A program made the position numbers and the translations under genes. Of a stretch of DNA of 64,000 bases, positions 21,964 through 47,003 are shown one piece after another; position 1 is the first letter of the stretch; every line of letters starts with the position of its first letter. The notes under the pieces are model-generated. The model was not told the origin of the DNA. It saw only the letters and a list, made by a program, of their open reading frames with translations, and searched no databases. The stretch lies in contig NC_057753.1 in the NCBI RefSeq assembly GCF_004010195.1, positions 13,926,485 through 13,990,484 of the forward strand, given 5' to 3'. Source of the DNA: Chiloscyllium plagiosum. Taxonomy: Eukaryota.

Positions 21964-21970
21964 CACGTTG

Positions 21971-22004
21971 AGAGTTTCAGTTTGTTCGCACGAGAGGGTG
22001 CTCC
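21971..22004 (+). promoter_or_regulatory. RSS-proximal CTCF-like motif
   Basis: agagtttcagtttgttcGCACGAGAGGGTGCTcc, about 25 nt after the nonamer; aligns without gaps to 46970-47003. Confidence 0.5.
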
Positions 22005-23944
22005 AACACAGAGCAAAATATATTTAAGTCCTATGCTCGGGGAGAACAATAAAAAAACTTCTAAAAGATGACGAAATGTACAATGCTGAATGAAAACAAA
22101 GGAGATTCTCTTTCACAGTTAGTTTACACCTGCAAACTCAATTCATAAGACCAGTTGTATTTATAAGTTCTGGAGAAGGGTTAGTGGACGCGAAATGTTA
22201 AATCTAATTTCGCTCCTGAGATCCTGCTGGACGTAAGGAGACTATTCAGCAAATTATAGGTTTTTTTTTCTGATTTCCAGAATTCGCAGTTGTCTCTGGT
22301 TTTACATAAATATATTGTTCTCTGAAATTTTTTAAGTTTCGAATTCTAGACTTACCTAAATGAACATCATCAATCCTGTTTTCAATTGTTACCTGTCCCT
22401 TCATTCTTCACTCATATCACTTCATAATAAGCATTTTCACCTCAGTGAAAATCCAGTCACCTCTGGCAACAGCAACCAAAATGTTTTGTCCTGAACGGTC
22501 TCAAGAATCTATGGGCATTGTTGAAAATATATTGTTTCAGTAAGTGAACAGTATCCCATCACAGTCCAGAATTGTGTGTCATGGATCGCAAACGGCTTTG
22601 GGAGTCTTGATGTGAATTACTCACTGCGGGAGTCTCCCACTCTCACCTGCTCTTATAGCAACAGTATTTATATGGCTGATCCAGTGTCTGGTGAATGGAA
22701 GGGTTCTCCATTTGAATAGTGGGGTTTCAGCGGTGCCATTGGCATTAACATCCAGGCATGATGGTCAGATTCGCTTATTATAAAGATGGCCACAACCTGG
22801 CACGAGTATAATGCGAATATTACTTATAACTGCTGAGGCCAGCGTGAATGTTATTAAGTCTTTCTGCGACTGGAGATGAACTGTGTCAGTAAATGAAGAG
22901 TCATGAACTGCAGATTGTAAAACTGTCGACAAAAGTCTCCACTTCTTACAGTTCAGCCCAGACATGTGCAATGGGCTTCACTAGATGGGCCACCGAACTC
23001 TGACAGACTCTCCAATGTTGGGTGCTGATCGGAGCTTGGGAATGTTAATATGTCTGCTAAGGTAGCAGCACTAGCATCAGTGATTTCCCAGCTCGGGTCT
23101 AGCACCCCTTTGCCACGACGGAGTGTATTTGATGAAGTAGATTGAAATTTAAAAGTGTCGTCCTGGGCCGAAATGACTGGCATTCAACATCCACAAACTG
23201 CATGAAGTGAAGTGTTAGCAACGATGTTTTTCCACTTACATCAGCTGTCAGCTGGGACATAGGTAAGCTAACAGGTGTGTCAATTTTGGTCACAGAGAAT
23301 ATTCTCCAGCGCCGTTGCGGGCAATGAAAACTTTCAGGAATTGACTGAAAAATATCTTAATTAATATTACAGAATAATTTCACTCGAGTAATACTTACCT
23401 ATTCATCTTCGTTTGTACTAATTGCAATTTCAGATTACTTGCCTGAGTTCTATGAATTTTCCAAGTCACCAACACAACACATGTTTACTTACAACAACTA
23501 GACCGATTTCACGTAAATAATTGCACTTTGGATATTGAAGGATTTCTGATTTCCGAATATTTCAAGGCAGAGACTGCCAACTAGACCGTATAAGCAGTGA
23601 GATGAATGGAGCCTTTCTCCCCGCCCACAGACGTTTGAAATCTTCCCTCAATCTATTTCATTCCTGAAAGTGGAGACTTGAGGGCTTGATTGAAGACAAT
23701 GTTTGTCTCAGATTGCGAACTTTTCTCGAGGCAATAGTGCTGTTGTGTTGAAGGGAAACAGTCTGTCAGGTACATCCCTGAAAACTTGATATTGGAATCG
23801 TCTGCGAGTGACAAGAAATAGCTGAAAACACAAATAAAGTAAACAAAATACTCATAACGTATGCATGAGTAGAGTTCAATGTAAGGCACGTACAAATGTG
23901 GAATAAACATATCTATCTGTTTGTCTGTCTGTCTATCTATCTAT

Positions 23945-24437
23945 CTCTCTGGATGTAGCTTACCTCGCTGGCTGAAAGATTTGTTTTCAACTGTTTCATC
24001 ACCATTCCAGGTAGCATCTTCGGTAAACCTCCGAACGAAGCACTGGTGGTCTAGCCCGCTTTATATTTATATGTCTGAGTTTCCTTGGGTTGGTGATGTC
24101 ATTTTCTGTGTTGACGTTATTTCCTATGTTAACGTCCTTTCCTGTTCATTGTCTCAGGTGTTGGTAAATGGCATCCAAATTAACGTGTTTGTTGATAGGT
24201 TTCCGTTTGGAATGGCATGCTTCTAGGAATTCTCGTGCGAGTCTCTGTTTGGCTTGTCCTCGGATGGGCATGTTGTGGAATTGATGTGCTTCCTCATCCA
24301 TGTGTCAGGATACTAGTGATGCTAGATACCAAAGATACTAATAAAGATACCCAATGAATATAGTCCGCCGATTTCTGAGCAACAAATTCAAACAAGCAAA
24401 CAAAACACGTTCAGAAACCCTAGCCACTCTCCAATAT
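23945..24437. mobile_element. Penelope-like fragment with an internal inversion
   Basis: Antisense terminus and GIY-YIG end (ggaatggcatgcttctaggaattctcg) switch to a sense fragment (NIVRRFLSNKFKQANKTRSETLATL). Confidence 0.65.
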
Positions 24438-24637
24438 CGCCCCCTGCCCGCCAACAATCTCATCCAACACCGCCACTCGCCAATCCCCAATTCCGACCAA
24501 CCCCATCCCCATCTTGTCCAAGTCCGAACCAGCCCACCCATCCCCAATTCTGCCCAAAACTGCCTGCATCCCAATCCCGTCCAGCACTGGCTCCCGCCCA
24601 CCCATCCCCGCAATCTCGTCCAACACTACCCCCTCCC

Positions 24638-24689
24638 NNNNNNNNNNNNNNNNNNNNNNNNNNNNNNNNNNNNNNNNNNNNNNNNNNNN
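24638..24689. other. Assembly gap (N run) next to a C-rich low-complexity tract
   Basis: Run of n preceded by ccaatcccc-type repeats at 24440-24637. Confidence 0.95.
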
Positions 24690-45570: not shown

Positions 45571-46110
45571 GTTTATGAGAAGATTTGTAGCTCGGCTCCT
45601 CGCTGTTGTGGTTCTGTTCGCCGAGCTGGGAATTTGTGTTGCAGACGTTTCGTCCCCTGTCTAGGAATTCCCTGGCTGTACAAAACACTACATAGGACAA
45701 ACAGGAAGACAGCTAACGATCCGCATCCATGAACACCAACTAGCCACGAAACGACACGACCAACTATCCTTAGTAGCCACACACACAGATGACAAGCAAC
45801 ATGAATTCGATTGGGACAACACTACTATTATAGGACAAGCCAAACAGAGAACAGCCAGGGAATTCCTAGAGGCATGGCACTCATCCACAGATTCAATCAA
45901 TAAGCACATCGATCTGGACCCAATATACCGACCATTGCAACGGACAGCTGGAACTGACAACCGGAAGCGGCAGATAAAAACCACTACAAATGCCGGAGGA
46001 AAGATCACAGAAGCGCTTCACAGGAGGCTCCCAAGCACTGAAGATGTCACCGGGACAGGGGACGAAACGTCTGCAACACAAATTCCCAGCTAGACGAACA
46101 GAACCACAAC
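45571..46110 (+). mobile_element. Short Penelope-like insertion with inverted termini and a 10-bp TSD
   Basis: Inverted termini gttgtggttctgttcgccgagctggg / cccagctagacgaacagaaccacaac; GIY-YIG fragment (HYIGQTGRQLTIRIHEH); flanks taatgtcaat / taacatcaat. Confidence 0.9.
46035..46074 (+). ncRNA. Minimal hammerhead ribozyme motif
   Basis: gca-CTGAAGA-t-gtcacc-gggaca-ggggac-GAAAC-GTC-tgc. Confidence 0.7.
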
Positions 46111-46453
46111 TAACATCAATGCACGGTTAGAATTTGTGAACAAATTTCTAGTTGACATGAGATTTTATTATCACGTGTGTTCTTGTACAGAGTGCAAACT
46201 ATGTAATTTAAAACAAAACGAGAAACAAACGAAAGAGAACCAAAGGGAAAGAATGTCCAAGTCACTCATGCCACCTCCACTATGAGTCCTGACACATTAC
46301 TGAAGCCGCCAGCTCGCCTCCAGAAAACTAGAGCTTTAAAGATTTCAGAGATTGTTGCAGCTCTGACCGTTTGTGTTTGACTGAAGCAAATTTGAAAGTG
46401 AACCGAGGATAGATGGTTTTCCAGACTGAAGAATTACAAAAACAAACAACACC

Positions 46454-46959
46454 ATGAGAAAATGCCTTGCACGATTCCATAATATTGTCTCACTTCTCAG
46501 TAAGTCTGTCCTTCCATTCCTTCCCCGACCAAGCTGTCTGTAGTCGAGACATGATTATGATTTAAACGATGATTATGATGATTATGATTTCAAATATTGT
46601 TTTTGTTTTTCTTAGAATACAGTTGCGAAGGTAAATGGAATACCCAGTTGCTTAAATTATTTTTGATGAAGAAAAATGTTTCACACTGTCCTGCAAATTG
46701 AAGTCAAGTACTGCTAATCTTTAAGTTTACTGGTACAGTCAATTTCCAGGGCAACCTCCACAATACAAGGTTCACGTGATTACAGCTATGGTGGTACTCA
46801 AGAGTCCTGCTCAGTGAGATCGTTTTTCTTTGACATTTGATAAGAGTAAAAAGATTGCCAAGTTAGCAATCTGCAAGACCGTCACCTCCGACTTTGCTGT
46901 GTATTTCTGTGCAATGAGACCCACGCTGATGTCGAGAGGTGGTCGGGCCCAGAAAAGAA
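46454..46959 (+). pseudogene. TCR alpha/delta V pseudogene (leader 46454-46499, V 46616-46921)
   Basis: Leader MRKCLARFHNIVSLL|GTAAGT; FTLSCKLKS...*VYWYSQFPGQPPQY...*DRFSLTFDKSKKIAKLAICKTVTSDFAVYFCAMRP with stops; heptamer CACGCTG and degenerate nonamer; paralog of the 21445 V. Confidence 0.9.
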
Positions 46960-46969
46960 AATCATTCTC

Positions 46970-47003
46970 AGAGTTCCAGTTAGCGGTCACAAGAGGGCGC
47001 TGT
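46970..47003 (+). promoter_or_regulatory. RSS-proximal CTCF motif
   Basis: gagttccagttagcggTCACAAGAGGGCGCTGt is close to the CTCF core CCASYAGRKGGCRS and has an upstream TCCAG. Confidence 0.65.

What the first reader, a model, noticed from the sequence alone, without database searches (positions are those of the whole stretch)
21964..47003. CTCF-like elements about 25 nt downstream of the RSS in two paralogous shark V genes
Seen: agagtttcagtttgttcgcacgagagggtgctcc (21971) and agagttccagttagcggtcacaagagggcgctgt (46970) align without gaps, sit at the same offset after the RSS and have the same orientation. The coding regions and RSSs of these two V genes have decayed. The cores resemble CTCF and both carry an upstream TYCAG. 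Established: mouse proximal Igh V genes have CTCF elements just 3' of the RSS that promote use during cohesin-driven RAG scanning. Inference: the RSS-CTCF architecture may date to the jawed-vertebrate ancestor, or the pseudogenes may be retained as loop anchors. The two functional V genes here lack an obvious site.
Basis: partly seen in the sequence, partly recalled or inferred. Interest (0 to 1): 0.72.

Follow-up and report, generated by a model that had tools for sequence, protein, structure and literature searches.

The report
CTCF motif behind shark TCR genes
One clan of T-cell-receptor gene segments in this shark genome, working and broken copies alike, carries a likely docking site for the DNA-looping protein CTCF at a fixed distance behind its recombination signal, a layout known from mouse and human antibody genes; binding and any effect on gene use are untested.

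Summary
The window lies in a TCR alpha/delta V array. Both elements are CTCF-core matches 21 nt past the nonamer position, on the V strand (gene B 20.2 bits, best in the window; gene A 10.0 bits, not significant alone). They are two of 33 homologous copies found in 1.63 Mb; 16 keep at least 8 bits, against 2 of 129 V genes outside the clan. The reconstructed ancestor scores 25 bits, and neutral decay predicts about 4 such copies (P about 0.003), but the core is not more conserved than its flanks overall. Corrections: this is not a pseudogene feature (6 of 10 intact, 10 of 23 broken); retention in relics is not significant (P 0.11); TYCAG is not in the upstream-motif register; 9 of 16 sites point away from J, on inverted V genes, which does not fit Igh-type linear scanning; the shark's IgH-like V genes lack the site (0 of 8), which favours convergence with mammals. 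No binding data were available. The scan noted similar elements before in other shark genomes.

The parts
21445..21490 (+). Leader exon of V gene A, followed by an intact GT donor
21626..21923 (+). V exon of gene A (TCR alpha/delta type, 'DTVEQ' clan). Open frame, but the acceptor reads AC for AG, the conserved Trp is Ser and YYC reads CLC; likely a pseudogene
   Evidence: family assignment through a paralog
21924..21963 (+). RSS of gene A: heptamer lacking CAC, 24-nt spacer, perfect nonamer
21964..21984 (+).
21985..22003 (+). CTCF-core match of gene A, 10.0 bits (weakened copy)
46454..46499 (+). Leader exon of V gene B
46616..46921 (+). V exon of gene B, same clan; 3 stops and a frameshift (pseudogene)
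46922..46962 (+). RSS of gene B: heptamer with CAC kept, spacer one base longer than in its closest paralog, decayed nonamer
46963..46983 (+). 21-nt linker of gene B
46984..47002 (+). CTCF-core match of gene B, 20.2 bits, best site in the window
56347..56365 (-).

Best explanation
The two elements are copies of one inherited cassette (V 3' end, RSS, 21-nt linker, CTCF-core motif) that marks one clan of TCR alpha/delta V genes, and the motif likely binds CTCF and would stall or anchor cohesin loops right beside the RSS, raising that V gene's contacts with the D/J end of the locus. Shown: the anatomy, the fixed spacing, the restriction to one clan, a near-optimal reconstructed ancestor, mixed orientation towards J. 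Inferred from mouse work: CTCF binding, loop anchoring, and an effect on V usage. Because over half of the V genes and of the carriers are inverted relative to J, the site more likely aids orientation-independent, diffusion-type synapsis (as shown for the mouse Trbv1 site and proposed for Igk impediments) than Igh-type linear RAG scanning. A and B are broken members that inherited the cassette; A's site has weakened and B's has not yet.
For: 33 homologous copies, of which 16 score at least 8 bits, 11 at least 12 and 5 at least 18; reconstructed root 25.1 of 29.6 possible bits (p 1e-9). 10 of 16 clan V genes against 2 of 129 others. Neutral simulation matched to the core's own substitution count predicts 3.8 copies at 8 bits or more against 16 seen, P 0.003; for a 23-copy subtree 2.4 against 12, P 0.002. 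Changes fall on low-information columns: 5.4 against 8.1 per site, one-sided p 0.043; variable columns within four subgroups 9 of 31 against 26 of 44, p 0.018; changes on branches with a good parent site cost less than random, P 0.016. The matrix behaves sensibly here: 38 sites at 18 bits or more against 1.4 expected, with the upstream GCAG in register. Strong reverse sites with an upstream GCAG lie in the D-J region (C44 14579291, 14589452), convergent with the 7 + carriers. Mouse precedents: PMC6746451, PMC4914699, PMC10772921, PMC11153149 (passages). The core and upstream motifs are the same in lamprey, chicken and human (PMC5504073 passages).
Against: No binding or usage data. The core is not more conserved than its surroundings overall (column identity 0.53 against exon 0.49, linker 0.57, nonamer 0.66; 6.95 against 6.99 changes per site), whereas the mouse site is much more conserved than its linker (PMC6746451). 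Rank correlations with information content are not significant (p 0.087; p 0.20). 17 of 33 copies, among them 4 of 10 intact genes, lack a site of 8 bits. Within subgroups only one of four tests passes (P 0.018, 0.11, 0.20, 0.94). The simulation weakens to P 0.05-0.07 if the root is the matrix optimum, and to about 0.08 if rates are halved. Copies were gathered with a profile seeded on carriers, which favours similar copies. Most elements lack the first C of the core. The matrix is recalled.
Confidence: 0.58

Rival explanations
1. Passive inheritance: one ancestral V gene had a CTCF-like sequence in its 3' flank, and duplication copied it with the gene; today it has no role in most or all copies.
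For: All copies are homologous, so they count as one origin. The core changes at the same overall rate as the exon. Every other V family also has its own conserved 3' flank. 17 of 33 copies have lost the match; three of four subgroup tests are neutral.
Against: A 25-bit ancestor at a fixed place is very unlikely by chance (p 1e-9 per position). Retention exceeds rate-matched neutral decay (P 0.003). Changes avoid the critical columns.
Confidence: 0.17
2. Pseudogenes kept as loop anchors: broken V genes persist because their CTCF sites still structure the array.
For: 3 of the 5 strongest sites (at least 18 bits) lie behind broken genes: gene B 20.2, C44 13993562 21.9, 14002089 18.1. A clade of five relics with destroyed heptamers keeps 6-22 bits. 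B (+) and relic 13993562 (-) form a convergent pair 20 kb apart with no assembly gap between them. In mouse, non-functional VH genes typically lack the site (PMC6746451), so this differs.
Against: Relic-clade retention P 0.11 and B-group P 0.20 against neutral decay. No enrichment in broken genes (p 0.46). Gene A's site has weakened to 10 bits and another A-group copy has a deletion in the core.
Confidence: 0.12
3. Igh-type mechanism: RAG bound at the D/J centre scans linearly by loop extrusion and pauses at these sites.
For: Same side, same strand relative to V and similar distance as in mouse VH (22 nt to the base where the mouse consensus starts, against 17-19; PMC6746451). The 7 + carriers, 4 of them intact, point towards J.
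Against: 79 of 145 V genes, 48 of 89 with open frame and good RSS, and 9 of 16 carriers are inverted relative to J. Inverted VH genes stop recombining in mouse (PMC7930373 passage). Strong sites in the V region show no strand bias (37 + and 32 - at 15 bits or more), unlike over 98% in mouse Igh.
Confidence: 0.08
4. The constrained unit is the site of another factor that overlaps or flanks the core (the linker word around TYCA and the word just 3' of the core), and the CTCF match is incidental.
For: Several linker and downstream columns are as conserved as the critical core columns (0-4 changes per site), and linker identity exceeds core identity.
Against: The reconstructed core is a near-optimal CTCF match and its changes track the CTCF information profile. 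No candidate factor was identified; none was searched for.
Confidence: 0.05

Closest known systems
RSS-associated CTCF sites of mouse and human Igh VH clans 2 and 3 (PMC6746451, PMC4914699, PMC7930373, PMC11153149; passages read)
   Same: A CTCF core just 3' of a 23-type RSS, on the V strand, at a fixed distance, segregating with V clan and not with position in the locus; removed by recombination.
   Different: A TCR alpha/delta clan, not VH; 22 nt against 17-19 (mouse) or 19 and 48 (human); the linker sequence is conserved too; present in many broken genes; mixed orientation towards J; binding not shown. The shark's own IgH-like V genes lack it.
Mouse Trbv1 downstream CBE (PMC10772921, passages read)
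   Same: A CTCF site downstream of a TCR V gene; the mutant shows 6-fold less Trbv1 rearrangement, and joining can be orientation-independent, which suits an array with inverted V genes.
   Different: A single gene in Tcrb (2 sites near an RSS in that locus, PMC5859386 table), not a clan-wide cassette; its distance to the RSS was not in the passages I saw.
CTCF sites of mouse Tcra/Tcrd (PMC5859386: table 2 passage and the TCR alpha/delta section read)
   Same: Same kind of locus. The shark array also has promoter-side sites in other V families, and motif pairs placed like INT1/INT2 and TEA.
   Different: Mouse sites are listed as upstream of V promoters or intergenic, 129 of 144 pointing to J-C; no RSS-adjacent class is listed.

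Membership tests
RSS-associated CTCF-binding element (Igh clan 2/3 type) | CTCF core motif match | tested here: met
   B 20.2 bits and 2 of 14 mismatches to the published consensus; A 10.0 bits and 3 of 14; 16 of 33 copies at 8 bits or more. Matrix recalled; consensus from PMC6746451.
RSS-associated CTCF-binding element (Igh clan 2/3 type) | Fixed short distance 3' of the nonamer | tested here: met
   21 nt to matrix column 1 in most carriers; exceptions include a 2-nt deletion and a 3-nt insertion. The value differs from mouse by 3-5 nt.
RSS-associated CTCF-binding element (Igh clan 2/3 type) | Segregates with V clan | tested here: met
   10 of 16 against 2 of 129; tree.
RSS-associated CTCF-binding element (Igh clan 2/3 type) | Uniform orientation towards D-J-C | tested here: not met
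   7 towards and 9 away from J; uniform only relative to the V gene.
RSS-associated CTCF-binding element (Igh clan 2/3 type) | Core much more conserved than the linker | tested here: not met
   Column identity: core 0.53, linker 0.57; only the critical columns stand out.
RSS-associated CTCF-binding element (Igh clan 2/3 type) | Present in functional genes, typically absent from pseudogenes | tested here: not met
   6 of 10 intact, 10 of 23 broken, p 0.46 (classes assigned by hand).
RSS-associated CTCF-binding element (Igh clan 2/3 type) | Attached to VH genes (homology with the mammalian element) | tested here: not met
   Carriers are TCR alpha/delta-like (one member searched); 0 of 8 IgH-like V genes in the locus.
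RSS-associated CTCF-binding element (Igh clan 2/3 type) | CTCF and cohesin occupancy; effect on V usage | not testable with these tools
   No run was listed for laying reads.
Two-part CTCF site (core plus upstream motif) | Upstream GCAG-type word 14-15 nt before core column 4 | tested here: inconclusive
   Register taken from 8 of 65 strong sites of this locus. The V elements match only the AGT-onward part there; TYCAG is at 9.
Dispersed repeat or transposon-borne CTCF site | Copies away from V genes | tested here: not met
   A 401-base relic stretch matched only 7 places, all in this locus (the tool warns that its sensitivity is limited). The one hit in 400 kb of other loci lies behind a displaced V of the same clan.

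The most novel reading that the evidence does not exclude
The V end, RSS and CTCF site form a portable regulatory cassette that moved between unrelated shark TCR V families by recombination in framework 3 and is kept bound even behind dead genes. Together with promoter-side sites in other families and convergent sites at D-J, it gives a cartilaginous fish a family-coded CTCF map of its TCR alpha/delta locus. RSS-side CTCF control of V choice would then be a recurrent, possibly 450-million-year-old design that works without linear RAG scanning.
Probability: 0.3. Interest if true: 0.72.

Novelty: new variant of a known kind. Interest (0 to 1): 0.5.

Why it matters
RSS-adjacent CTCF sites are known from mammalian Igh and a few Tcrb genes; in mouse Tcra/Tcrd the sites are listed at promoters or between genes. 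A clan-wide RSS-side site in a shark TCR alpha/delta array, on both deletional and inverted genes, would show that this way of tuning V choice is older or more recurrent than the mammalian Igh case and is separable from linear RAG scanning. The locus offers natural controls: intact clan members with strong, weak or no site, in both orientations. I found no paper on it in five searches (titles and abstract starts only; subscription papers are mostly not held).

Tried and rejected
ChIP-type sequencing runs for window 46400-47400: none was listed; this is no evidence either way, and no reads could be laid. A degenerate genome-wide pattern for the element found nothing, but the pattern was mis-registered and would not match even gene B, so it is uninformative. 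TYCAG as the upstream motif: rejected on register. Transposon origin: no support. Pseudogene-specific retention: not significant. An assembly artefact as the cause of mixed orientation: no gap between B and the nearest inverted carrier, though two other intervals checked do hold N runs. A shared element in the TCR beta-like array on C41 (label inferred from its J motifs, recalled): of 22 V genes in 210 kb, 1 had a forward site (9.1 bits) and 2 had reverse sites (14.9, 12.8) within 100 nt, and the alpha/delta profile gave no hit below E 0.3; that array is only partly covered. No supplements were read; the site tables of PMC6746451 and PMC5859386 could refine the distance comparison.
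Full report
Setting. The window is G000:C44:13926485-13990484. I fetched 160 tiles of C44, contiguous from 13.33 to 14.73 Mb with the window and 26 sampled tiles from 12.26 to 13.21 Mb, 1,628,445 readable bases in all. An iterated profile search found 175 V-like pieces, of which 145 had a 3' end and were analysed. One D, 8 J, a constant-type exon and then a long J array (105 J in all by the looser rule) lie at 14.55-14.69 Mb, all on +. 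An intact paralog of the two genes matches TCR alpha/delta V domains best among solved structures. So this is a TCR alpha/delta locus in which + V genes face J and - V genes are inverted: 66 and 79 of 145.

Observation. I scored them with a CTCF matrix recalled from memory. B (46984-47002) has 20.2 bits and is the best site in the window; A (21985-22003) has 10.0 bits, rank 13, a level that chance gives about four times in the window. Against the consensus printed in PMC6746451 they have 2 and 3 mismatches of 14. The matrix behaves sensibly on this DNA: 38 sites reach 18 bits against 1.4 expected, and among 65 distinct strong sites away from V ends GCAG stands 14-15 nt before core column 4 in 8. 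That register shows that TYCAG, at 9, is not the upstream motif; at 15 the V elements have only the AGT-onward part. Both genes are broken: A by loss of the acceptor AG, the conserved Trp and the heptamer CAC; B by three stops, a frameshift and a decayed nonamer.

What it is. Over 145 V genes, forward hits of 8 bits or more fall in the first 40 nt after the RSS 11 times (reverse: 2), and at most twice in any later 40-nt bin to 1 kb. Ten of 16 clan genes carry one against 2 of 129 others. A DNA profile seeded on carriers gave 107 hits; I kept the 33 with E below 1e-10 that reached through the element and dropped 74, which were mostly V ends of other families (part of the output was cut). Of the 33, 16 score at least 8 bits, 11 at least 12 and 5 at least 18. 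The distance from nonamer to core is 21 nt in most carriers although the RSS spacer varies from 22 to 24. One subgroup (C44 12291651, 12436524, 12845206) has an exon closer to another family (0.57-0.60 against 0.40-0.52 identity) but a 3' end and flank closer to this clan (0.70-0.81 against 0.59-0.63, then 0.53-0.57 against 0.37-0.43; one member compared). This suggests a recombination near the end of framework 3; its direction is not determined.

Is it selected? For: the reconstructed root scores 25.1 of 29.6 bits. With neutral rates scaled to give the core's own number of changes, 3.8 of 33 copies would keep 8 bits against 16 seen (P 0.003); in a 23-copy subtree 2.4 against 12 (P 0.002). Critical columns change less than the others (5.4 against 8.1 changes, p 0.043; 9 of 31 against 26 of 44 variable columns, p 0.018, a fifth subgroup that has lost the site left out), and changes cost less score than random ones (P 0.016). 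Against: the core as a whole is no more conserved than exon or linker; rank correlations are not significant (p 0.087 and 0.20); the subtree test falls to P 0.05-0.07 with an optimal root; only one of four subgroup tests passes (0.018; others 0.11, 0.20, 0.94, the last inflated by a deleted copy scored without a gap); and the copies were gathered with a carrier-seeded profile. I read this as real but intermittent selection with frequent loss.

Pseudogenes. Six of 10 intact members and 10 of 23 broken ones carry a site (p 0.46; one gene counted as intact had no leader found by my rule). Three of the five strongest sites lie behind dead genes, which is unlike mouse, but the relic clade's retention is not significant (P 0.11). 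The loop-anchor idea stays open and unproven.

Mechanism. In mouse, sites 17-19 bp past the nonamer mark VH clans 2 and 3 (PMC6746451 and PMC4914699, passages) and impede RAG scanning (PMC11153149 and PMC7930373, passages). The shark site has the same side and strand relative to V, at 22 nt by the same count. But 9 of 16 carriers point away from J, strong V-region sites show no strand bias (37 and 32), and inverted VH genes do not recombine in mouse. The better model is the Trbv1 downstream site, whose loss cuts rearrangement 6-fold and whose locus allows inversional joining (PMC10772921, passages). I therefore infer a loop anchor or extrusion pause that raises local contact with the D-J end. 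Binding, looping and usage are all untested; no ChIP-type run was listed.

Ancestry. The motif itself is the same from lamprey to human (PMC5504073, passages); that paper also warns that motif scanning alone predicted sites poorly in Hox clusters. The shark genes closest to mammalian VH have no site: 0 of 8 IgH-like V genes in this locus and 0 of 2 RSS-bearing ones on C8. Mouse Tcra/Tcrd sites are listed at promoters or between genes (PMC5859386, table passage and one section). The alpha/delta element was not found in the sampled TCR beta-like array. Independent gains in different V clans are thus more economical than descent of one element, though loss in sharks' IgH genes or in mammals' TCR genes is possible. 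PMC12227049 (passages) describes the shark locus context and does not contain the word CTCF.

Earlier notes. The scan has several unchecked notes of similar elements in other shark genomes. They gave me the lead to PMC6746451 and to the TCR beta check; I do not count them as support.

Verdict. Real, clan-wide, a new variant of a known kind; interest 0.5.

Noticed in passing
G000:C44:12265142-13528608 (tiles L068-L080, L041, L135, L140): Promoter-side CTCF motifs of 13.8-21.6 bits on the V strand, 256-350 nt before the exon, in 10 of 11 genes of another V family; also in 2 of 2 genes of a third family (20 bits, about 385 nt). This resembles the mouse Tcra pattern.
   Followed up: partly
G000:C44:14521624, 14525322 (+); 14579291, 14589452 (-): Two forward motifs upstream of D and two reverse motifs between the constant-type exon and the long J array, all with an upstream GCAG in register; placed like mouse INT1/INT2 and TEA.
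   Followed up: no
G000:C44:14620308-14685798: One J family has a reverse CTCF-like motif (8-16 bits, holding an E-box word) 61-76 nt from the heptamer start, outside the RSS; 15 of 105 J segments reach 8 bits, 13 of them among the 31 with one heptamer type. It may be an E-protein site.
   Followed up: partly
G000:C44:14221345: An intact clan member that has lost the RSS-side site has a 15.9-bit promoter-side site.
   Followed up: no
G000:C44:13400007-13525072: A repeated cassette carries a reverse 19-22-bit site with the upstream motif in each of 7 units, facing the promoter-side forward sites.
   Followed up: no
clan RSSs, e.g. window 21924-21963: Spacer length varies by subgroup: 24 nt in several intact genes, 22 nt in the chimeric subgroup, 23 in others.
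   Followed up: no
window 36364-36651 (-): A V gene with an open frame whose second conserved Cys reads Trp and for which no leader was found; likely non-functional.
   Followed up: no
G000:C7:59209974-59210025 (L178): A displaced, broken V of the chimeric subgroup with a weak (6.0-bit) core, about 3 kb from another TCR-like V, on a different chromosome-scale contig.
   Followed up: partly
G000:C91702:6164-6445: An unplaced contig holds a protein-identical copy of gene A's exon, probably an alternative haplotype.
   Followed up: no
G000:C41:18556794 and 18564683: Two TCR beta-like V genes have reverse CTCF-like motifs (14.9 and 12.8 bits) 38-47 nt past the nonamer; most V genes sampled here are inverted relative to the three J segments found.
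   Followed up: partly
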